DNA from: Parcubacteria group bacterium
GTDB taxonomy: Bacteria; Patescibacteriota; Minisyncoccia; Moranbacterales; UBA2206
Reading direction: 5' to 3'
Assembly: GCA_041664225.1 (NCBI GenBank)
Contig: JBAYLE010000003.1
Coordinates: forward strand, 15,608 to 79,607
Length of the DNA: 64,000 nucleotides
In this document: positions 1,753 through 62,839 of the stretch, piece by piece
Position numbering within the stretch: the stretch's first letter is position 1
How the letters are laid out: each line of letters starts with the position of its first letter
Translations under genes and position numbers: made by a program
The notes under the pieces: generated by a model
Databases searched by the model: none
What the model saw: the letters and a program-made list of their open reading frames with translations, nothing else
What the model was told of the DNA's origin: nothing

Positions 1753-1871
1753 AAAATAATTTACAATTTTCAATTTTCAATTTACAATCAATTTTCAATT
1801 ATTTAATTATCAATAACTTAAAATTTGAAAATTGGTTCATTGGAAATTCAATGAAAATTGATTACTGAGCA

Positions 1872-12921: not shown

Positions 12922-14025
12922 ATGATAATTTTAGGAATTGAAACTTCATGCGACGAAACCGCTGCTTCGGTAGTCAAGGCCGGCAAAAATGTCAAAATTT
13001 TGTCAAACATCGTATCGTCTCAAGTCAAACTGCATGCTAAGTGGGGCGGCGTAGTGCCCAATCTGGCAGCCAGAGAACATTTGAAAAATATTTTACCCGT
13101 AATCGAAATAAGCCTCGAAGAAGCTTCTGTAAAAATTAAAGATATTGATCTGATTGCTGTTACCAATGGACCAGGTCTGATTCCAGCCTTGCTCATCGGC
13201 ACCAATACAGCCAAGGCGCTCGCTTATGCCTGGGAAAAACCCTTGATTGGAGTGCATCATATTGAGGGACACATCTACGCTAATTTTATCGGGGATAAAA
13301 TTAGCGCAAGTTCAAAGTTCAAAGTTCAAAGTTCAAGGTTCCCGATTTTATGTTTGGTTGTTTCCGGCGGGCACACGCAATTAGTCCTAATGAAAGATCA
13401 TTTGAAATATAAAATTATCGGACAAACCTTGGATGATGCTGCCGGTGAAGCTTTTGATAAGGTTGCACGAATTCTAGGACTCGGTTATCCTGGAGGACCG
13501 GCCATTGCCGAGGCGGCGATGAAGTCAAAAATTAAAAGTGAAAAACTCAAAGTTCAAGGTTCAGCTTTCTTCCTTCCACGGCCAATGATTAATTCAAAAA
13601 ATCTCGATTTCTCTTTTTCCGGACTGAAAACTGCCGTTCTTTACACGGTCAAAAAAAATCCAGAGATATTGAGAAATAAAAAAATGCTAATTGATTTATG
13701 TTCCGAGTTTCAGCAGGCCGTTATCGATGTTTTGATTCATAAGACCCTGGCCGCCGCTGAAAAATACAATCCCAAAATGATAATGCTGGCGGGCGGCGTT
13801 TCTGCCAATGAAGAATTGCGCGATCAATTAAGCGCTTCTTTGAAAAAACATTTTCCAAATACAAAATACCGCATCCCCGAAACTAGATACAGTCTCGACA
13901 ATGCCGCCATGATAGCCAGCGCCGGATTTTTCCGCTGGCAAAAAATGAACAAGACTGAGCGAGAGAGCACTAGTTCAAATTGGAAAATATTAGAAACGGA
14001 TGCTAATTTAAAATTAAAACAATAA
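12922..14025 (+). CDS. tsaD: tRNA N6-adenosine threonylcarbamoyltransferase TsaD (Kae1/YgjD family). Start at MIILGIE.
   Basis: GIETSCDETA, HHIEGH, VVSGGHTQL, GGVSAN motifs. Two short in-frame insertions carry the repeat tcaaagttcaaggttc. Confidence 0.85.
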   Translation: MIILGIETSCDETAASVVKAGKNVKILSNIVSSQVKLHAKWGGVVPNLAAREHLKNILPVIEISLEEASVKIKDIDLIAVTNGPGLIPALLIGTNTAKALAYAWEKPLIGVHHIEGHIYANFIGDKISASSKFKVQSSRFPILCLVVSGGHTQLVLMKDHLKYKIIGQTLDDAAGEAFDKVARILGLGYPGGPAIAEAAMKSKIKSEKLKVQGSAFFLPRPMINSKNLDFSFSGLKTAVLYTVKKNPEILRNKKMLIDLCSEFQQAVIDVLIHKTLAAAEKYNPKMIMLAGGVSANEELRDQLSASLKKHFPNTKYRIPETRYSLDNAAMIASAGFFRWQKMNKTERESTSSNWKILETDANLKLKQ

Positions 14026-16850: not shown

Positions 16851-16954
16851 CAGGAAAAGTGAAAAGTTCATAAAGTCTATAGAGTTCATAAAGTTGAAAT
16901 TCACTATTGCTTATTCCTTTTAACTTTAAAACTTTACAAACTTGTAACTCGATT

Positions 16955-19892: not shown

Positions 19893-20009
19893 TTTAAGTT
19901 TATAATGTTATAAAGTTGAAAGTTTATAAAGTATTTTCTTCAATATTAACACACTTTATAAACTTTATGAACTTTAAAAACTTTTTACTTTTAACTTTTA
20001 ACTTTTAAC

Positions 20010-21560
20010 TTATAGCTCTTCCCATTGATCTATGGAATACTCCGTGCCGGTCGGAAAATACGGCGGCGGACAATACAGCAATTGATTGTTGAAATTATAG
20101 ACGCGTCCTTCGAATCCGCTGACGCCGCTTTTGAAATAAGGCTGTAAAAAGGAAGCGATGGCTCCATTAAATGTCAGTGCATATTTTCCGCCCATACCCG
20201 TAACTATGCCAACCTTGCCGGTCTGCGCCAACAAAGCTGCATCCACCGTGAAATCGCTGGGACAATCATTTAAAACTAAGATGTCCTTTTGTGCCACTAA
20301 CCCCAGCATATTGTCGCAATTATAGTCGGCTAAGCGGATATCATAATCGCTAATACCGATATAGATGTCCGCATTGCCGCCCGATAAATCGGCGGCCGCA
20401 ACAGTTACTCTTCGATTATTCAAGCTTCCTTCGAACCAGACGTTGTCTTCGACAAAAATAACTCCGTTATCCACAATATTGTAATTGTTCAAACTTACGC
20501 ATTTTCCCCTGGCGGGCTTACTCCCTTGTATATGTGGACAGTCAGCAAGAGCACAGCATGAGGAAACAGTGCAAGCATCGCCATTGGTTCCACTGTATGA
20601 TCCCGAAGCTCCAGTAATGATTCCTTTATAATTGCTTATGGAATGATTGGGGTTAGCCGAATTAACCGTACAAATATCATAGGTTCCGTCAGTTTTTATA
20701 TTAATCCTTCTACCTACTCCATCACTATTAAAATATTTTCCCGATCCAGCCTCGGCCTCAGCTTTCATGTTGATAAAGTCAGCCGAGATTCCGGCGAAGC
20801 TCACTTCCGGCACCGGAAACTGACGTCCGCCTTCGAAGATGTCCGGACGATTAGGCACGGTTCCATCCGGCCAGGGATAGGAGGGCGCGTCATCTTCCAC
20901 GGCAGCCGCTGATTCATGCGTGTGCACTCCCAAACTTAAATCGCTTCCTCCGTGCGTCGGATCATCAAAGGACGGAAGCAAAGAGCTGACCGTATTGTGC
21001 GCCAATCCGTCAAACCGAATGCCGTTATTGGAATGGACCTTGCCAAAAACCTCCGCTTGATCGCCGAAATTCATAAAGCTGTTCGACAAAAATATGTATT
21101 CACTCCAAGATGGACGCCTGAAACGCACTCTGACTGCTCGTTGGACGTCCGGCGTTTTTACACTCTCTCCCGTGACAGTAATTGTCGCGATAGTTGAATT
21201 AGCGCCAGGTGGATCTAAATGGACCGAATAACTTCCCAGCTTATCCCCGGTCTCTGAATCGTTAAAATCTGCCGTATAATCGCCAGTAACGCCCAGAGTG
21301 GAACTGTCCTGCCAGAAAGTTTTTAGTTGCTGGGCGTCCATGCCATCGGTCGCGTGCGCCAAATACCAGCGATAATAATAAACTCCCGCCTCGGCGACCT
21401 GAAAAGCTTTCTCCCTCTCAACTCGATTAAAACTGAACTTCAATTGCATAACAATATAACTGATCATAGAAACAAGCAGAATCGAAACAACCGCCGTCAT
21501 GACTAGCGCATAAGCTACGGCTGATCCTCTTTTTGAATTTTTGTTTTTATAAATCAACAT
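20010..21560 (-). CDS. PilX-N-terminal-domain pilus-associated protein (large minor pilin/adhesin-like)
   Basis: N-terminal hydrophobic PilX_N-like segment GSAVAYALVMTAVVSILLVSM, large Gly/Ser/Thr-rich beta-rich body. Confidence 0.5.
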   Translation of the reverse strand: MLIYKNKNSKRGSAVAYALVMTAVVSILLVSMISYIVMQLKFSFNRVEREKAFQVAEAGVYYYRWYLAHATDGMDAQQLKTFWQDSSTLGVTGDYTADFNDSETGDKLGSYSVHLDPPGANSTIATITVTGESVKTPDVQRAVRVRFRRPSWSEYIFLSNSFMNFGDQAEVFGKVHSNNGIRFDGLAHNTVSSLLPSFDDPTHGGSDLSLGVHTHESAAAVEDDAPSYPWPDGTVPNRPDIFEGGRQFPVPEVSFAGISADFINMKAEAEAGSGKYFNSDGVGRRINIKTDGTYDICTVNSANPNHSISNYKGIITGASGSYSGTNGDACTVSSCCALADCPHIQGSKPARGKCVSLNNYNIVDNGVIFVEDNVWFEGSLNNRRVTVAAADLSGGNADIYIGISDYDIRLADYNCDNMLGLVAQKDILVLNDCPSDFTVDAALLAQTGKVGIVTGMGGKYALTFNGAIASFLQPYFKSGVSGFEGRVYNFNNQLLYCPPPYFPTGTEYSIDQWEEL

Positions 21561-34882: not shown

Positions 34883-36235
34883 CTAGCTAAGCAGGTTCTT
34901 TCTGCGAAGTTTTTTGTGATATGTTATCGCAAACCGATGCGCTTCATCCATAATCCGCTTGATCAAATTTTTGTCATTGATAATGTTTTTTAAATTTGAA
35001 AATTTAGGAATTGAAAATTGATTGAAAATTGAAAATTGAAAATTGAGATTTTTGCGAGACTTTCCTTTGGCAATGGTAACCATTGGCATCTCTAAATTTA
35101 ATTCCTGCAATAATCTTTCAGCCATAAAAAGGTGCCCTTTCCCTCCATCCAACAAAATTAAATCTGGTTGCGGCCAATCATTTTGAAAACGGCGCAACAA
35201 AACTTCGCGCATCATACCCACATCATCTGTGCCTTCAACTGTTTTGATTTTAAATTTACGATACTGCGACTTGTCCGGTTCATTATTTTTGAAAACTACC
35301 ATCGAACCCACCGCATGAGCACCGGAAATGTTGGAAATATCATAAGCTTCAATTCTTATTGTTTCGGATTTTTGATTTATGATTTCTAATTTCTCATCGC
35401 TCGCGATGAGCGCCACATCACGGATGTGCTTCAGCGCAAAAACTTTATTCCTAGCGTCCGCTGCTTTTTCAAATTCATTATTTTTCGCGTAATTTTTCAT
35501 TTCTGTCTCTAGTTTTTTTATTAATCCTTTTTTTCGGCCTTCCAAAATCATTCTGATTCCACGAATATTTTTCATGTAATCCGCTTTAGAAATGGCGCCG
35601 GCATACGGCCCCGGACATCTGCCAATTTGAAAATCCAAACAGCCCCTCTCTGTTTTTTGATTATTGCTATGGAATGGAAAAATTTTTCGCAAAATTTTCA
35701 GCGCAATTTCCATTTGCTTTTTGGAAGTATAAGGACCAAAGGTCTTTGCAACCCTGACCCCCCTCTCCCTTTTTAGGGAGAGGGGCTGGGGGTGAGGGGG
35801 CAGATCCGTCGCTCTCAAAATCAGTACCCTCGGAAAATCTTCCTTAGTTATAACGAAATATGAAAATGACTTATCATCTTTCCCCATCGCGTTATACTTC
35901 GGCTGGAGTTTTTTGATCAGTTGCGCTTCCAAAATCAACGCCTCCAAAACCGAATCAGTTTCTCTCACTTCGATATCCGCAATCTGATCAATTGCATACT
36001 CGATCGGCCGATCCAAATTCCGCGCCGTAGCGTGTCGAAGCTTGGTGTCTTTTGGTCGTTTTGGTCGAGAGACACCGAGCTTCTTATCCGTAAGCGGCGT
36101 AGAAAAATACGACCCGACCCGGCTCCGCAAATTAGTCGCCTTCCCCACATACAAAACATCCCCGGCTTTATCCTTGAAAATATACACGCCAGGATTTTTG
36201 GGCAGCTTTAATATCTTAATTTTTAGGCTTGACAT
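34883..36235 (-). CDS. uvrC: Excinuclease ABC subunit C, short form (450 aa), carrying several in-frame repeat insertions
   Basis: N-terminal GIY-YIG (GVYIFKDKAGDVLYVGKATNLRSR), UVR domain, C-terminal endonuclease domain (AYDISN). Confidence 0.75.
   Translation of the reverse strand: MSSLKIKILKLPKNPGVYIFKDKAGDVLYVGKATNLRSRVGSYFSTPLTDKKLGVSRPKRPKDTKLRHATARNLDRPIEYAIDQIADIEVRETDSVLEALILEAQLIKKLQPKYNAMGKDDKSFSYFVITKEDFPRVLILRATDLPPHPQPLSLKRERGVRVAKTFGPYTSKKQMEIALKILRKIFPFHSNNQKTERGCLDFQIGRCPGPYAGAISKADYMKNIRGIRMILEGRKKGLIKKLETEMKNYAKNNEFEKAADARNKVFALKHIRDVALIASDEKLEIINQKSETIRIEAYDISNISGAHAVGSMVVFKNNEPDKSQYRKFKIKTVEGTDDVGMMREVLLRRFQNDWPQPDLILLDGGKGHLFMAERLLQELNLEMPMVTIAKGKSRKNLNFQFSIFNQFSIPKFSNLKNIINDKNLIKRIMDEAHRFAITYHKKLRRKNLLS
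34985..35050. repeat. GAAAATT heptamer tandem array inside the uvrC coding frame
   Basis: ggaattgaaaattgattgaaaattgaaaattgaaaattgag is nearly identical to the reverse complement of the array at 1760-1800; translated as NLNFQFSIFNQFSIPKF. Confidence 0.7.
35745..35791. repeat. Palindromic G/C-rich mini-insertion inside uvrC (in-frame)
   Basis: ccctctccctttttagggagagggg hairpin plus ctgggggtgagggggc; locally GC-rich; encodes LPPHPQPLSLKRERG. Confidence 0.55.
36038..36083. repeat. Palindromic mini-insertion with core cttttggtcgttttggtcgaga inside uvrC (in-frame)
   Basis: gaagcttggtgtc [ttttggtcgttttggtcgaga] gacaccgagcttc; same core as the element in uvrA2 at 38890-38944. Confidence 0.65.
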
Positions 36236-52083: not shown

Positions 52084-52134
52084 ATTTTAAAAATATAAAA
52101 TAATAGATCCTTCAGCCTACAAAATTTCCACAAA

Positions 52135-52284
52135 ATTCAAGCGAGCGAGCGTTAAGAAAGTTCCTTGATTCCGCCTCGGAAGCAGCCGGAACTTTTAGCT
52201 CGCAAGTGCATAATTTTGTCGGAAATTTTGTCTGGCTGAGAGTTCTTTTTGTTACTTTTTCTTGCGGAAAGAAAAAGTAAGGGG
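52135..52284 (+). repeat. Copy C of the structured repeat family (lacks the 5' arm), immediately upstream of trpS
   Basis: attcaagcgagcgagcgttaagaaa, ttccgcctcggaagcagcc loop flanked by agttcc/ggaact, cttgcggaaagaaaaagtaagg 3' end. Confidence 0.65.
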
Positions 52285-52325
52285 CTGTAATTGCCTAAAA
52301 CACTCCTTTACGCTAGAATAAATTT

Positions 52326-53306: not shown

Positions 53307-53322
53307 AAATTTTTAAACTACC

Positions 53323-53522
53323 ATCGAGCATGTAAAATATGCTACTACAAATTGAAGCTTTTGAGCGTTAAGAAATTTTTAGGTCCGCCTCGGGGCAACC
53401 AAAAATTTTAGTGAAAAAGCTGAAAATTTGTTAGCATGTTTTGCCTGCTCGGACTTTTCTTTGTAACTTTCTTTTCCTAGAAAAGAAAGTTAGATCAGTA
53501 CTTGCGGAAAGAAAAAGTAAGG
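53323..53522 (+). repeat. Copy B of the structured repeat family, between trpS and the GT39 gene; its 3' end supplies the AAGGA RBS
   Basis: atcgagcatgtaaaatat, gcgttaagaaa, ggtccgcctcggggcaacc, cctgctcggacttttcttt, ttttcctagaaaagaaag, cttgcggaaagaaaaagtaagg. Confidence 0.7.
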
Positions 53523-53529
53523 AAAAGTT

Positions 53530-59275: not shown

Positions 59276-59444
59276 AGTATTGGCCATCGCTTGACTCTTT
59301 TCTCATGGCTTGCTAAACTAACTTTACAACTTAGAAAGCCCAATGATTCTGTCGCCCTGATCTCAATAGGGATAGCAGGATACAAATCCGCAAGGAAAGG
59401 CTTTCTTTAGCGGTTTTAAATTTATTAACTAATTAAACAATTGC

Positions 59445-59969
59445 ATGCAATACGAACTATTTTATCTGGTCGGCGCTTCAAAAGAGGCAGATCTTCCCAA
59501 AATTAAAGCTGAGATAGCGGAATTTGTCACTTCTTCCGGCGCTGTTTTCGAGGAAAAACAAGTGGTCGAAAAAAGAAAAATGGCATATGAAATCCAGCGT
59601 GAAAATCGCGGTTTTTATGTCGCACAAAGATTCAATCTGGAAGATGCGGAGAAAATTCAATCAATCACCCGCAAACTTAACCTTTATGCCGGCATCCTGA
59701 GATCACTGATTGTCCGCACTGACGAACTGCCAGAACTAACTTCCCGAGAAGAAAGAGAGACAAAAAGTAAGGCCGAACCAAAATTTGAAGCTAAAAAACC
59801 CCTGACCGGGCAGGCTATCCGTCCTGAAAGCGAGGATAAACCCAAAGAAATTGTTCCGACTAAAGTGAAAAAAGAAGAAAAAGCAGAAACCATAGACAAA
59901 ACACCCGAAGAAAAGAAATTGGATGAAGCAGACATTGATAAAAAACTTGAAGAAATTTTAAACATTTAA
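59445..59969 (+). CDS. rpsF: 30S ribosomal protein S6 with a K/E-rich C-terminal extension
   Basis: YELFYLV start, S6 fold pattern; rpsF-ssb-rpsR synteny. Confidence 0.8.
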   Translation: MQYELFYLVGASKEADLPKIKAEIAEFVTSSGAVFEEKQVVEKRKMAYEIQRENRGFYVAQRFNLEDAEKIQSITRKLNLYAGILRSLIVRTDELPELTSREERETKSKAEPKFEAKKPLTGQAIRPESEDKPKEIVPTKVKKEEKAETIDKTPEEKKLDEADIDKKLEEILNI

Positions 59970-60038
59970 TCATAAAACATGAAACATATAACATGAAACG
60001 AGATTGTTGCATGTTGTATGCTATATGTTACATGAACT

Positions 60039-60518
60039 ATGAACGTAAACAAGGTGCTCTTAGTCGGACGCTTAACCCGCGATCCGGAAATAAGAAACAC
60101 TCCTTCCGGGCAAACCGTCGCTTCAATCAGTATGGCCACTAATCGTTTTTGGAAAGACAAAAACGGACAAAGGCAGGACAAGACCGAATTTCATAATGTC
60201 GTTCTTTGGGGAAGATTGGCTGAGATTGCCGGCCAATATTTGACTAAGGGGCAAGAAGCCTATATCGAAGGCCGCATGGAAACACGGAAATACACCGCCA
60301 AAGACGGTACTGAAAGGCGTACAACCGAGGTTATCGCGGAAAATATGCAGCTTGGCAGCCGGCCTCAAGGCTCAGCTCCAAGGCCAACCGGAACATATAA
60401 TGCCCCTCAGGCTCCATCAACTCAGCAAACATCCCAAAGACCAGCCGAGGAAGAAATTCCTACTATCAATCTTGATGAGGAACAAGATGAAGTAAAAATT
60501 GAAGACGTCCCCTTTTAA
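60039..60518 (+). CDS. ssb: Single-stranded DNA-binding protein
   Basis: OB fold NKVLLVGRLTRDPE, acidic C-terminal tip DVPF. Confidence 0.9.
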   Translation: MNVNKVLLVGRLTRDPEIRNTPSGQTVASISMATNRFWKDKNGQRQDKTEFHNVVLWGRLAEIAGQYLTKGQEAYIEGRMETRKYTAKDGTERRTTEVIAENMQLGSRPQGSAPRPTGTYNAPQAPSTQQTSQRPAEEEIPTINLDEEQDEVKIEDVPF

Positions 60519-60540
60519 ACCCTAAAAAAACTAAATTCAT

Positions 60541-60774
60541 ATGTATAACACTAACGATACGGCCAAAACAGAAAAGAAAACTTGTTTCTTTTGCGAAGCC
60601 AAAATGGACAAACTTGATTATAAAGACGCTTATCTTTTGCGCCGCTTTATGAATTCTCAGGGCAAGATTTATCCCCCAAAAAGACATGGGACTTGCACTC
60701 GGCATCAAAGAACGCTGGCCAACGCGATAAAAAAAGCCCGCGTTATGGCATTGGTGCCCTTCGTCGTCAAATAA
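60541..60774 (+). CDS. rpsR: 30S ribosomal protein S18
   Basis: CFFCE...LLRRF...RHGTCTRHQRTLANAIKKAR. Confidence 0.9.
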   Translation: MYNTNDTAKTEKKTCFFCEAKMDKLDYKDAYLLRRFMNSQGKIYPPKRHGTCTRHQRTLANAIKKARVMALVPFVVK

Positions 60775-61332
60775 ATGTTGAATCTAAGTGATATAAAATC
60801 AGGCAAAAATATTGTTCTGGATGAGCTTCCTTATGCAGTCCTTTACCATGAACATTCAAAAACTGGCCGCGCCGGTTCGGTTTTGCGTACCCGCATTAAA
60901 AATCTGGCCACGGGCGCAGTTCTGGAAAAAACCTTCCAGGGAGCTGATCAAGTAGAGGAGGCGGACGTCACTAAAGGCAAGGCGCAATTTCTCTACAAGG
61001 AGGGAACCGCTTACGCATTCATGGATAACGAGTCCTACGAACAATTTACGCTTCCAGCGGAGGCCCTGGGAAACGCCGTAAGCTATCTGATCGAAGGTAC
61101 AGAAATAGTTGTTCTCTACTTCAATAGCAATCCGATCAACATTGAACTGCCGATCAAAATGAAACTTCGGGTTACTGAAGCTCCTCCCGGAATAAAAGGC
61201 AACACAGTTTCCACGGGCGGTAAAATGGTAACCTTGGAAACCGGATTAAAAATCTCCACTCCGCTCTTTGTGAATGAGGGCGATGAAATTATTATCAATA
61301 CCGAAAAAGGAGAATATGTAAGCCGAGCATAG
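60775..61332 (+). CDS. efp: Elongation factor P
   Basis: KOW-like N-domain and two OB domains; conserved KAQFLYKEG block. Confidence 0.85.
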   Translation: MLNLSDIKSGKNIVLDELPYAVLYHEHSKTGRAGSVLRTRIKNLATGAVLEKTFQGADQVEEADVTKGKAQFLYKEGTAYAFMDNESYEQFTLPAEALGNAVSYLIEGTEIVVLYFNSNPINIELPIKMKLRVTEAPPGIKGNTVSTGGKMVTLETGLKISTPLFVNEGDEIIINTEKGEYVSRA

Positions 61333-61384
61333 TTCATAAAACATGCAACAAGCCCAGAAAAAAATATTTTTGAGATAAAAAAAT

Positions 61385-61410
61385 AAAAATCCCCCAAGGG
61401 ATTTTTATTT
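61385..61410 (+). terminator. Rho-independent terminator after efp
   Basis: aaaatcccccaagggatttttattttg. Confidence 0.7.
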
Positions 61411-61448
61411 TGTTTCATGTTACATGCTTCATGCTACATGTTCTATGA

Positions 61449-61604
61449 CTAGAACAAACCCATATTGCCGAACAAAGTGATCGTCAGCATGGGTGTCAGC
61501 GCGATCAGGAATGCGAAAGCTATTTCTTCCGCTTCCTTGATCTCTAGCTCCCTTCGCTCGCAGTCCGGGCAACCCGGCTCTCCGCATTTTTGTACTTCTT
61601 CCAT
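61449..61604 (-). CDS. 51-aa small protein with an N-terminal Cys cluster and a C-terminal TM helix (unannotated candidate)
   Basis: MEEVQKCGEPGCPDCERRELEIKEAEEIAFAFLIALTPMLTITLFGNMGLF; GGGG RBS 14 nt upstream; below the ORF-track length cutoff. Confidence 0.3.
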   Translation of the reverse strand: MEEVQKCGEPGCPDCERRELEIKEAEEIAFAFLIALTPMLTITLFGNMGLF

Positions 61605-62750: not shown

Positions 62751-62839
62751 AAGTTTTCACTAAAATAAATTAATATCTCCTTAACAGTGATAGTATATCA
62801 CCACTTCTCAACCTCCACAATCCTAAGTTATCCACAGGC

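What the first reader, a model, noticed from the sequence alone, without database searches (positions are those of the whole stretch)
59970..61450. ACATG-rich inverted repeats flanking ssb-rpsR-efp
The spacer after rpsF (cataaaacatgaaacatataacatgaaac ... atgttacatgaac) and the region after efp (gtttcatgttacatgcttcatgctacatgttctatg) are imperfect reverse complements of each other. Both share the 15-mer cataaaacatg(a/c)aaca just after the rpsF and efp stops, and both are built from ACATG/CATGT units. The ssb start codon lies inside the left array. These could be operator sites for a damage-responsive or growth-rate regulator of ssb. They could also be attenuator or processing structures, or a pair of inverted repeats bracketing the ssb-rpsR-efp segment.
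Basis: seen in the sequence. Interest (0 to 1): 0.5.

Follow-up and report, generated by a model that had tools for sequence, protein, structure and literature searches.

The report
Heptad-repeat palindromes between Moranbacteria genes
The two ACATG-rich stretches are real and are two copies of a widespread, largely undescribed kind of intergenic palindrome built from 7-base tandem repeats in Moranbacteria (candidate-phyla-radiation bacteria); they are not a DNA-damage operator, and most likely act as RNA stem-loops between genes.

Summary
Both stretches are arrays of 7-nt units (YATR every 7 nt). Each locus is itself a palindrome. The left copy (59970-60044) fills the rpsF-ssb spacer from stop codon to start codon. 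The right copy (61328-61348 and 61416-61450) wraps the bidirectional terminator between efp and a convergent 51-aa ORF. Such period-7 arrays occur nowhere else in the 64 kb.

The window is a Ca. Moranbacteria contig. In 459 kb of related loci, tandem arrays of period 7-8 are strongly over-represented, mostly intergenic and mostly two-armed. They fall into recurring unit families (ACATG, ATTCGTA, AGCTAAA, CAATTTT, GTWAC and others) that swap between orthologous spacers.

The ACATG spacer is conserved at a coding-like level in five genomes. The motif is absent from the recA, uvrA and uvrC promoters. recA has its own conserved palindrome (GTGATATAATATCAC). The SOS-operator reading is therefore not supported.

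My best mechanism is inferred, not shown. In this nearly Shine-Dalgarno-less organism the left copy would fold into an intercistronic stem-loop that gates ssb translation and mRNA stability. No G·U excess or compensatory change supports RNA pairing, so protein-binding arrays and selfish or slippage-derived repeats remain serious rivals. The closest known relatives are the intergenic heptamer repeats of cyanobacteria and Beggiatoaceae, and REP elements.

The parts
59291..59319 (+). Predicted sigma-70-type promoter of the rpsF-ssb-rpsR-efp operon (TTGACT-17-TAAACT, with TG before the -10). No promoter is predicted in the rpsF-ssb spacer.
59445..59969 (+). rpsF (ribosomal protein S6). Its TAA stop is at 59967-59969, 1 nt before the left array.
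59970..59999 (+). Left element, 5' arm: T CATAAAA CATGAAA CATATAA CATGAAA C (4 heptads, A-rich spacers).
   Evidence: (D1, I2)
60000..60009 (+). Left element, centre (GAGATTGTTG). The MFE fold places a 4-nt apical loop (GAGA) here; the rest pairs.
60010..60044 (+). Left element, 3' arm: CATGTTG TATGCTA TATGTTA CATGAAC TATGAAC (5 heptads). The last unit holds the ssb ATG (60039-60041).
60039..60518 (+). ssb (single-strand DNA-binding protein).
60541..60774 (+). rpsR (ribosomal protein S18).
60775..61332 (+). efp (elongation factor P). Its TAG stop is at 61330-61332, inside the first heptad of the right element.
61328..61348 (+). Right element, 5' arm: CATAGTT CATAAAA CATGCAA (3 heptads). 61334-61350 matches 59970-59986 at 16 of 17 positions.
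   Evidence: (D1)
61377..61414 (.). Bidirectional intrinsic terminator (AAAAATCCCCCAAGGGATTTTT with A and T tracts) lying between the two right arms.
   Evidence: (I7)
61416..61450 (+). Right element, 3' arm: CATGTTA CATGCTT CATGCTA CATGTTC TATGACT (5 heptads). It overlaps by 2 nt the stop (61449-61451) of the convergent ORF. Read on the minus strand it is CATAGAA CATGTAG CATGAAG CATGTAA CATGAAA, the same polarity as the arrays after the rpsF and efp stops.
61449..61604 (-). Convergent 51-aa ORF with a C-terminal hydrophobic tail and no Pfam hit. tblastn finds relatives in 24 of 59 loci.

Best explanation
The two ACATG-rich regions are two copies of one unit family (F1, AACATGA/TCATGTT). They belong to a clade-wide class of intergenic palindromes in Ca. 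Moranbacteria whose arms are short tandem arrays of 7-8-nt units.

Shown: the class exists. It is intergenic and predominantly two-armed. It has a limited set of recurring unit families that change place between orthologous spacers. The F1 copy in the rpsF-ssb spacer is conserved at a coding-like level in five genomes.

Inferred mechanism: the left copy is transcribed inside the rpsF-ssb-rpsR-efp mRNA and folds into an imperfect stem-loop spanning about 27 positions per arm, 23 of them paired. Its foot starts right after the rpsF stop codon and ends 3-6 nt before the ssb AUG. This organism has almost no Shine-Dalgarno sequences, so initiation depends on an unstructured A/U-rich leader. A stem-loop in that position would gate ribosome access to ssb. 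It would damp ssb relative to the two ribosomal protein genes and make ssb initiation depend on ribosomes terminating on rpsF, which melt the foot. It could also serve as a processing or stability barrier between mRNA segments.

The right copy looks like a younger duplicate placed around the operon's bidirectional terminator. There each terminated transcript carries only one arm in its 3' UTR. Any role for it is weaker and unclear.
For: Identity and class:
- The window is a Moranbacteria contig.
- TRF on 459 kb (the window plus 67 loci) finds arrays of at least 3 copies with period 7 (51), period 8 (30) and period 9 (9). Shuffled sequence gives about 1 each.
- 72 of 90 arrays are intergenic, although 78% of the DNA is coding.
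- 48 of 73 arrays are clearly two-armed and 6 clearly one-armed. In same-strand spacers the counts are 30 two-armed of 39, with 1 one-armed.
- One genome reuses a unit at several spacers. The L057 copies upstream of ssb and rpmI, and the L050 copies upstream of ssb and rpsR, are nearly identical over about 100 nt.
- The window itself has other families at 1758-1860, 16854-16943 and 19893-20010.

Constraint:
- Among the five F1 genomes the rpsF-ssb spacer is 0.68 identical. rpsF CDS is 0.64 and ssb CDS 0.74. Other non-coding flanks are 0.53-0.57, and shuffles are 0.50-0.54 (alignment).

Hairpin and geometry:
- The left copy folds at -21.2 kcal/mol, z = -3.6.
- In 89 hairpin-bearing spacers of this operon, the distance from the stop codon to the hairpin foot has median 6 nt (IQR 3-12). 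The distance from the foot to the ATG has median 10 nt (IQR 8-12).
- No promoter is predicted in the spacer; the operon promoter is at 59291-59319.
- Only 4 of 52 genes have an SD-like 4-mer, and positions -8 to -3 are A-rich.
- Spacer lengths are bimodal (about 0-40 or about 45-200 nt). Long forms occur in 50 of 59 rpsF-ssb, 33 of 56 ssb-rpsR and 30 of 56 rpsR-efp spacers.

Precedent: TAACTGA heptamer repeats lie directly upstream of start codons, internal to ribosomal-protein operons, in SD-poor Beggiatoaceae. A translational role was proposed for them (PMC4679880).
Against: - No RNA-specific signature. Sense-strand folds are not more stable than antisense folds: sense is the better in 22 of 57 spacers, and the mean difference is +1.9 kcal/mol in favour of antisense.
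- 1x1 mismatches in 100 intercistronic hairpins are G·U 20 against A·C 29, p = 0.25.
- None of 14 consensus pairs shows a compensatory change among the five F1 genomes.
- At the right copy, and at its L004 counterpart, the arms are complementary even though a terminator separates them, so terminated transcripts cannot pair them. The minus strand folds better there (z = -6.85 against -4.54).
- One-armed arrays exist, such as ATTCGTA x4 in the ychF 5' UTR of at least 9 genomes.
- The stop/start geometry would also result from any insertion into an ancestral 9-17-nt spacer that spares the roughly 10-nt initiation region.
- Long spacers and hairpins are no more frequent in this operon than in other same-strand gene pairs: 66% and 44% against 63% and 41%.
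- There are no expression data.
Confidence: 0.42

Rival explanations
1. The heptad arrays are multi-site DNA or RNA binding platforms for sequence-specific, cooperatively binding proteins. One example would be ribbon-helix-helix proteins of the omega, ParG or MetJ type, which read 7-8-bp units in direct and inverted orientation. Another would be an RNA-binding protein acting at the start codon. Each unit family would be read by its own factor and would define a set of co-regulated genes.
For: - The dominant period is 7-8 nt, with contiguous units in convergent orientation. This matches the architecture of omega heptad operators and ParG tetramer-box arrays (PMC3074150, PMC9499535, PMC3130281).
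- The sequence, not just the structure, is conserved. F1 is conserved across five genomes with no covariation.
- ATTCGTA x4 in the ychF 5' UTR is conserved in sequence, number and spacing in at least 9 genomes, and it is one-armed.
- The same few families recur across the clade at different genes.
- There is no strand-specific (G·U) signature.
- The complementary arms around a terminator are better explained at the DNA level.
Against: - No candidate reader was identified.
- Dozens of distinct units across the clade would need many factors in about 1-Mb genomes (list of units).
- The period is not fixed: 7, 8 and 9 all occur.
- No promoter is predicted next to the left array.
- Arrays also occur between tRNA genes and inside ORFs.
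- ATTCGTA occurs in both orientations relative to the downstream start, which argues against an RNA reader for that family.
- The idea that units have palindromic tetramer cores (dimer sites) was tested and rejected: 21 of 87 against 18 ± 3.4 in shuffles.
Confidence: 0.2
2. The arrays are selfish or mutational by-products with no role for the cell. They would be REP/MITE/STRR-like palindromes that grow by replication slippage (heptamers being the favoured unit in bacteria). Their arms would be kept complementary by template switching, and they would spread between spacers by recombination or an unidentified transposase. They would be tolerated only where they spare the roughly 10-nt initiation region.
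For: - Presence/absence polymorphism at orthologous spacers: 9 of 59 rpsF-ssb spacers are only 9-38 nt.
- Close relatives (L050 and L051, 87-94% identical in coding DNA) have unrelated elements in two of three spacers.
- F1 and F2 alternate among neighbours in the tree.
- Copies within one genome are near-identical.
- There is no G·U excess.
- Arrays occur inside the tsaD and uvrC ORFs, like Rickettsia palindromic elements (from memory).
- There is no enrichment in this operon over other gene pairs.
- Heptamer SSR over-representation in bacterial intergenic DNA has been attributed to polymerase slippage (PMC4692102).
Against: - The F1 spacer is conserved at a coding-like level, while neighbouring non-coding DNA is at the random baseline.
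- The L024/L059 spacer is 91% identical against 58-87% for the coding sequences.
- The ychF array is conserved in at least 9 genomes.
- The foot-to-ATG distance is narrow, IQR 8-12 nt.
- The element is abundant in streamlined genomes.
- Three independent assemblies show no copy-number variation. They are identical throughout, however, so this has little power.
Confidence: 0.25
3. One reading: the ACATG units are operator sites of a damage-responsive (SOS-like) or growth-rate regulator controlling ssb.
For: - ssb belongs to the SOS regulon in some bacteria (general knowledge).
- recA lies 300 nt from the right array.
- The arrays are non-random.
Against: - The motif is absent from the recA, uvrA and uvrC upstream regions in the window.
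- The right array is downstream of both neighbouring genes, so it does not sit in a promoter.
- Most relatives have other unit sequences, or no insert at all, upstream of ssb.
- recA has its own conserved palindrome over the -10 box, and ssb lacks it.
- The same kind of array sits between pilus genes, between tRNAs, and between clpB and comFC.
Confidence: 0.03
4. The left and right arrays are terminal inverted repeats of a mobile or invertible segment that carries ssb-rpsR-efp.
For: 59971-60004 and 61407-61440 are 79% complementary (I1). A 17-mer is shared after the rpsF and efp stops (D1).
Against: - Each locus is a complete palindrome on its own (I2).
- The gene order rpsF-ssb-rpsR-efp is conserved across 56 genomes with or without arrays.
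- L004 has different units at the two ends.
- The other F1 genomes lack the right copy.
- No recombinase gene is adjacent.
Confidence: 0.02

Closest known systems
Intergenic heptamer tandem repeats. Examples: TAACTGA repeats of marine Beggiatoaceae, cyanobacteria and Bacteroidetes (MacGregor 2015, PMC4679880); heptanucleotide repeats of Calothrix/Nostoc (STRR) and GGGAATC repeats of Xanthomonas (PMC4692102).
   Same: - 7-nt units in tandem, with 2 to about 10 copies.
- Strongly intergenic.
- Often within a few nt upstream of start codons.
- Found inside ribosomal-protein operons.
- The host genes largely lack Shine-Dalgarno sites.
- Occasional copies inside ORFs.
- Some inverted pairs in Xanthomonas.
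- Function unproven; a translational role has been proposed.
   Different: - Here the norm is a two-armed palindrome (48 of 73 arrays). BOGUAY has 169 direct sets and one indirect.
- Many unit families coexist per genome and swap between orthologous spacers.
- The units are A/T-rich and not G4-forming.
- The host is a CPR/Patescibacteria lineage. A full-text search of the held library for such repeats in Patescibacteria found nothing.
REP/BIME (REPIN) elements of Enterobacteria and Pseudomonas (from memory; not tested against a model).
   Same: - Short extragenic palindromes.
- Multi-copy, with genome-specific sequence families.
- Located after stop codons, between genes of one operon and between convergent genes.
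- Form stem-loops in mRNA that affect the stability of the upstream segment and, when close to a stop codon, its translation.
   Different: - REP arms are not tandem arrays of a 7-nt unit.
- REPs have a conserved GTAG-type head and a cognate RAYT transposase. Neither was looked for successfully here.
- Copy number per family could not be measured with 64 kb.
Heptad and tetramer-box operators of ribbon-helix-helix proteins: omega of pSM19035, ParG/parH, MetJ metboxes (PMC3074150, PMC9499535, PMC3130281).
   Same: Contiguous 7-8-bp units, 4-10 per site, in direct and convergent orientation. Several sites per replicon share one unit.
   Different: - Those sites overlap promoters or act as plasmid centromeres, and lie next to the gene of their binding protein.
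- Here no promoter is predicted, and the arrays sit between cistrons or after terminators on a chromosome.
- No RHH gene was linked to the arrays.
- Units differ widely between genomes.
Mycobacterial interspersed repetitive units (MIRU) and Rickettsia palindromic elements (RPE) (from memory).
   Same: - MIRU: repeats that fill intercistronic spacers of operons and abut the flanking stop and start codons.
- RPE: palindromic repeats that also occur in-frame inside genes.
   Different: - MIRU units are 40-100 bp and encode small coupling ORFs.
- RPEs are about 100-150 bp and are not built from heptads.

Membership tests
Intergenic heptanucleotide tandem repeats (STRR / TAACTGA-type) | Tandem head-to-tail copies of a 7-nt unit, at least 3 copies | tested here: met
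   TRF gives period 7 with 4.1 copies at 59971-59999 and 4.6 copies at 61411-61442. Four YATR at period 7 are found only at these loci.
Intergenic heptanucleotide tandem repeats (STRR / TAACTGA-type) | Non-coding location, interspersed at many loci of the genome | tested here: met
   72 of 90 arrays are intergenic against 22% non-coding DNA. There are at least 7 array loci in this 64-kb window.
Intergenic heptanucleotide tandem repeats (STRR / TAACTGA-type) | One or a few fixed unit sequences per lineage, mostly as direct repeats | tested here: not met
   There are dozens of units in several recurring families. Most arrays have an inverted partner (48 of 73).
REP/REPIN elements | Extragenic imperfect palindrome that can form a stem-loop | tested here: met
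   Left copy -21.2 kcal/mol, z = -3.6. Right copy z = -4.5 on the plus strand and -6.9 on the minus strand.
REP/REPIN elements | High-copy family with a conserved head sequence and a cognate RAYT (Y1 transposase) in the genome | not tested
   Only 64 kb of the genome is held. No transposase was seen among the 17 window proteins scanned with Pfam. The rest were not scanned.
RHH (omega-type) heptad operator | Contiguous 7-bp units in direct and convergent orientation | tested here: met
RHH (omega-type) heptad operator | Overlaps or adjoins a promoter that it controls | tested here: not met
   No sigma-70-like promoter lies in or next to either array. The right array lies downstream of both neighbouring genes.
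RHH (omega-type) heptad operator | Binding by a cognate RHH dimer | not testable with these tools
   Needs EMSA or DAP-seq. No adjacent RHH gene was found.
SOS (LexA-type) operator | The same motif upstream of recA and other repair genes of the genome | tested here: not met
   No match upstream of recA, uvrA or uvrC. recA has a different conserved palindrome.
SOS (LexA-type) operator | Conserved upstream of ssb in relatives | tested here: not met
   Only 4 of about 58 related genomes share ACATG units there. The others carry different units or no insert.
Intrinsic terminator / attenuator | G+C-rich stem followed by a U tract | tested here: not met
   The left element has an A/T-rich stem and no T tract after it. 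The canonical terminator at 61380-61411 is a separate feature nested between the right arms.
Known RNA families (for example ribosomal-protein leaders) | Match to an Rfam covariance model | tested here: not met
   No hit reaches gathering score in the region. Only chance-level hits (E of at least 0.6) appear with permissive filters.

The most novel reading that the evidence does not exclude
The heptad arrays would be the cis-elements of a clade-wide regulatory code in Moranbacteria, organisms with few classical transcription factors and almost no Shine-Dalgarno sites. Each unit family (ACATG, ATTCGTA, AGCTAAA, CAATTTT, GTWAC and others) would be read by its own cooperatively binding protein, on DNA or on the mRNA leader. 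Swapping a cassette in a spacer would re-assign a gene (ssb, rpsR, efp, ychF, rpmI, recA) from one co-regulated set to another.
Probability: 0.12. Interest if true: 0.8.

Novelty: new variant of a known kind. Interest (0 to 1): 0.42.

Why it matters
Gene expression control in candidate-phyla-radiation bacteria is almost unknown. They cannot be grown alone, they have tiny genomes and few recognisable regulators, and in this lineage almost no Shine-Dalgarno sites.

A pervasive, structured and partly conserved class of intergenic element sits exactly between stop and start codons of core genes (ribosomal proteins, SSB, EF-P, YchF, tRNAs, pilus genes). It is therefore a candidate for how these organisms set protein ratios within operons. 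The alternative is a new family of selfish palindromic repeats thriving in streamlined genomes.

The result also adds a two-armed, multi-family variant to the unexplained phenomenon of heptamer repeat over-representation in bacterial intergenic DNA. For this particular finding it removes a tempting but wrong annotation (an SOS operator of ssb). It points instead to a different, conserved candidate operator at recA.

Tried and rejected
1. **SOS or repair operator.** I searched the 16-mer, the 9-mer and AACATG/CATGTT across the window. Nothing lies upstream of recA, uvrA or uvrC.
2. **Replication origin.** There is no GC-skew switch in the window.
3. **Known RNA family.** There are no Rfam hits.
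4. **Internal promoter for ssb.** The consensus scan finds none in the spacer. By inspection, the TAAAAT-like hexamers in relatives lie too close to the ATG for leaderless starts.
5. **Palindromic tetramer cores** (dimer-binding or methylation sites: CATG, AGCT, ACGT and so on). They are not enriched: 21 of 87 units against 18 ± 3.4 in shuffles.
6. **Sense-RNA signature.** I compared sense and antisense MFE and counted G·U against A·C mismatches. Neither favours sense RNA. Covariation in the five F1 spacers gave 0 compensatory pairs.
7. **Enrichment in the ribosomal-protein operon.** Long or hairpin spacers are as common in other same-strand gene pairs.
8. **Hypervariable contingency locus.** Three assemblies from different samples are identical over the arrays. 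They are identical everywhere, so power is low.
9. **Metagenome scan for CATG-N3 x4.** It returned mostly unrelated heptamer microsatellites from many organisms, plus a handful of low-GC two-armed ACATG elements (L081, L088, L108, L180, L188).
10. **Composite-transposon reading.** Rejected on comparative grounds.
Full report
**What is there**

The region holds an operon and two convergent genes.
- The operon is rpsF (59445-59969), ssb (60039-60518), rpsR (60541-60774) and efp (60775-61332), all on the + strand.
- It is followed by a convergent 51-aa ORF (61604-61449) and recA (62750-61734).
- The window is identical to a 124-kb JGI metagenome contig. Its SSB is 65-87% identical to those of about 60 Ca. 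Moranbacteria / Parcubacteria MAGs.

- The 16-mer CATAAAACATG(A/C)AACA follows the rpsF stop and the efp stop.
- 59971-60004 and 61407-61440 are 79% complementary.
- The ssb ATG lies in the last repeat unit.

**Anatomy**

Both stretches are arrays of 7-nt units.
- Left copy: TAA-T-[CATAAAA CATGAAA CATATAA CATGAAA]-C-GAGATTGTTG-[CATGTTG TATGCTA TATGTTA CATGAAC T**ATG**AAC].
- Right copy: [CA**TAG**TT CATAAAA CATGCAA] - 28 nt - bidirectional terminator (61380-61411) - [CATGTTA CATGCTT CATGCTA CATGTTC TATGACT]. The 3' arm overlaps by 2 nt the stop of the convergent ORF.

Four YATR at a 7-nt period occur only at these two loci in 64 kb (5 hits against 0.04 in shuffles). The 16-mer with up to 3 mismatches has 13 hits against 1.5 expected. 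Each locus is a palindrome by itself (I2). The left/right complementarity is therefore a by-product of a shared unit.

As RNA the left copy folds into a stem-loop from 59970 to 60035 (-21.2 kcal/mol, z = -3.6). The right region folds at z = -4.5 on the + strand and z = -6.9 on the - strand. Transcripts that stop at the terminator contain only one arm.

**The element belongs to a class**

In the 74 related loci the rpsF-ssb spacer is either very short or long.
- It is 9-38 nt in 9 of 59 genomes and 50-146 nt in 50 of 59.
- The long forms almost always fold into a hairpin. Many are inverted arrays of a tandem 7-8-nt unit.
- The unit differs between genomes:
  - ACATG (window, L012, L017, L023, L052)
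  - ATTCGTA (L004, L019, L050, L057 and others)
  - AGCTAAA (L008, L016, L041)
  - CAGTAAC (L030)
  - CACGATT (L006)
  - TTAAATTG (L022, L038)
  - AAAGT (L055)

TRF on 459 kb gives arrays of at least 3 copies with period 7 (51), period 8 (30) and period 9 (9), against about 1 each in shuffles. Of these, 72 of 90 are intergenic and 48 of 73 have an inverted partner nearby.

One genome reuses a unit at several spacers, with copies nearly identical over about 100 nt: L057 upstream of ssb and rpmI, L050 upstream of ssb and rpsR, and L041 upstream of rpsF, ssb and rpmI.

The window itself has further arrays of other families:
- 1758-1860, between clpB and comFC
- 16854-16943, between two tRNA genes
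- 19893-20010, filling the pilX-like to pilM spacer
- inside the tsaD and uvrC ORFs

The closest relative, L004, has the same architecture around its efp terminator but with CGCGTAT units.

**Constraint and turnover**

There are signs of constraint.
- Among the five ACATG genomes the spacer is 0.68 identical. rpsF CDS is 0.64 and ssb CDS 0.74. Neighbouring non-coding DNA is at the shuffle baseline (0.53-0.57 against 0.50-0.54).
- The ATTCGTA x4 array in the ychF 5' UTR, downstream of a TTGATT-N17-TAnnnT promoter, is conserved in at least 9 genomes.

There are also signs of turnover.
- L050 and L051 are 87-94% identical in coding DNA. They share a 100% identical rpsF-ssb spacer but have unrelated elements in the next two spacers.
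- ACATG and ATTCGTA alternate among neighbours in a protein tree.

The families are therefore old, sequence-conserved, multi-copy and mobile between spacers.

**Mechanism**

Several observations fit an intercistronic RNA stem-loop.
- The spacer has no predicted promoter, so it should be transcribed within the operon mRNA.
- The genome is nearly SD-less: 4 of 52 genes have an SD-like 4-mer, and the leaders are A-rich.
- In 89 hairpin spacers of this operon the hairpin foot lies a median 6 nt after the upstream stop and a median 10 nt (IQR 8-12) before the ATG.

This geometry is what a stem-loop needs in order to gate SD-independent initiation, couple it to upstream termination, and act as a segment boundary for mRNA decay. 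That is my preferred model.

The model is not proven, and three tests fail to support RNA pairing.
- Sense folds are not better than antisense folds.
- G·U does not exceed A·C at single mismatches (20 against 29).
- There are no compensatory changes.

Two further facts argue against it. The arms remain complementary around a terminator, where they cannot pair in terminated transcripts. One-armed arrays also exist.

Two rivals therefore stay open.
- Protein-binding arrays. The 7-8-bp contiguous units in convergent orientation resemble omega/ParG/MetJ-type RHH operators.
- Selfish or slippage- and template-switch-derived repeats, REP/STRR-like.

My idea that the units have palindromic tetramer cores was tested and rejected. 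Long or hairpin spacers are not enriched in this operon relative to other gene pairs.

The SOS or growth-rate operator idea is not supported.
- The motif is absent from the recA, uvrA and uvrC upstream regions and is not conserved upstream of ssb.
- recA carries a different palindrome over its -10 box, GTGATA(T/G)(A/T)ATATCAC. It is conserved in at least 6 genomes and absent near ssb.

The bracketing inverted-repeat idea is also not supported. The 'processing/attenuator structure' option is compatible with my best model.

**Comparison with known systems**

The nearest described phenomena are intergenic heptamer repeats.
- TAACTGA repeats lie immediately upstream of start codons, internal to ribosomal-protein operons, in SD-poor Beggiatoaceae. 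They also occur in cyanobacteria and Bacteroidetes (PMC4679880).
- Heptanucleotide repeats occur in Calothrix and Nostoc, and GGGAATC repeats in Xanthomonas, some of them in inverted pairs. Heptamer SSRs are known to be over-represented in bacterial intergenic DNA (PMC4692102).
- REP/BIME, MIRU and RPE elements (from memory) share the extragenic-palindrome or intercistronic placement.

This case differs in three ways. It is predominantly two-armed. It has many unit families that swap between orthologous spacers. It occurs in a CPR lineage, for which a full-text search found no description. I rate it a new variant of a known, functionally unresolved kind.

**Verdict**

Interest is moderate. The finding opens a clade-wide feature worth a systematic census and a simple reporter test, but no function is shown.

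Noticed in passing
window 62787-62801 (recA promoter, minus-strand gene); also L004 5929-5943, L008 5664-5678, L014 5686-5700, L017 3443-3457: A palindrome, GTGATATACTATCAC, overlaps a TATAAT-like -10 box upstream of recA. The exact GTGATATAATATCAC sits at the same place in four relatives, and a one-mismatch version in L011. It is a candidate SOS-type operator for this lineage. The only other dyad-symmetric near-match in the window is 34916-34930, about 100 nt upstream of uvrA.
   Followed up: partly
window 62829-62838; same position in L004, L008, L011: A DnaA-box-like GTTATCCACA is conserved about 30-60 nt upstream of the recA palindrome.
   Followed up: no
window 61730-61702 (minus strand): A perfect consensus promoter (TTGACA-17-TATAAT) lies between the recA stop (61734) and the recA terminator hairpin (about 61690-61660). 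It points toward the 51-aa ORF. Transcripts from it would meet the terminator almost at once, which suggests a tiny RNA or an attenuated leader.
   Followed up: no
window 1758-1860; 16854-16943; 19893-20010: Further two-armed tandem arrays of other unit families (CAATTTT/AAAATTG and AAAGT/ACTTTATAA). They lie between clpB and comFC, between two tRNA genes, and filling the spacer from the stop of a PilX-like gene to the start of pilM.
   Followed up: partly
window 13308-13341 and 13522-13563 (tsaD ORF); 34992-35046 (uvrC ORF): Heptad arrays (AAGTTCA x5; AAAATTG x8) lie inside open reading frames without breaking them. This suggests in-frame insertions of the same repeat class into proteins.
   Followed up: no
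window 52084-52325 and 53307-53529: Two long, related palindromes (z = -6.6 and -8.9) share a GCGTTAAGAAA...CCGCCTCGG core. They appear to be another interspersed structured repeat or non-coding RNA family.
   Followed up: no
L004, L007, L010, L015, L016, L018, L036, L041, L057: 5-45 nt upstream of ychF: A conserved one-armed array, ATTCGTAY-ATTCGTA-N3-4-ATTCGTA-ATTCGTA, lies between a TTGATT-17-TAnnnT promoter and the ychF start codon. The window's own ychF (57102) lacks it.
   Followed up: partly
whole window: The genome is almost free of Shine-Dalgarno sites: 4 of 52 genes have one. Start contexts are A-rich at -8 to -3, with T at -2 and -1. CATG is under-represented (168 against 234 expected).
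   Followed up: partly
L029 6319-6360: A perfect (GTTACAG)x6 array lies 10 nt upstream of recA in one relative. A related GGTTACG x4 array lies upstream of its rpsF. Arrays can therefore precede repair genes too, but with lineage-specific units.
   Followed up: no
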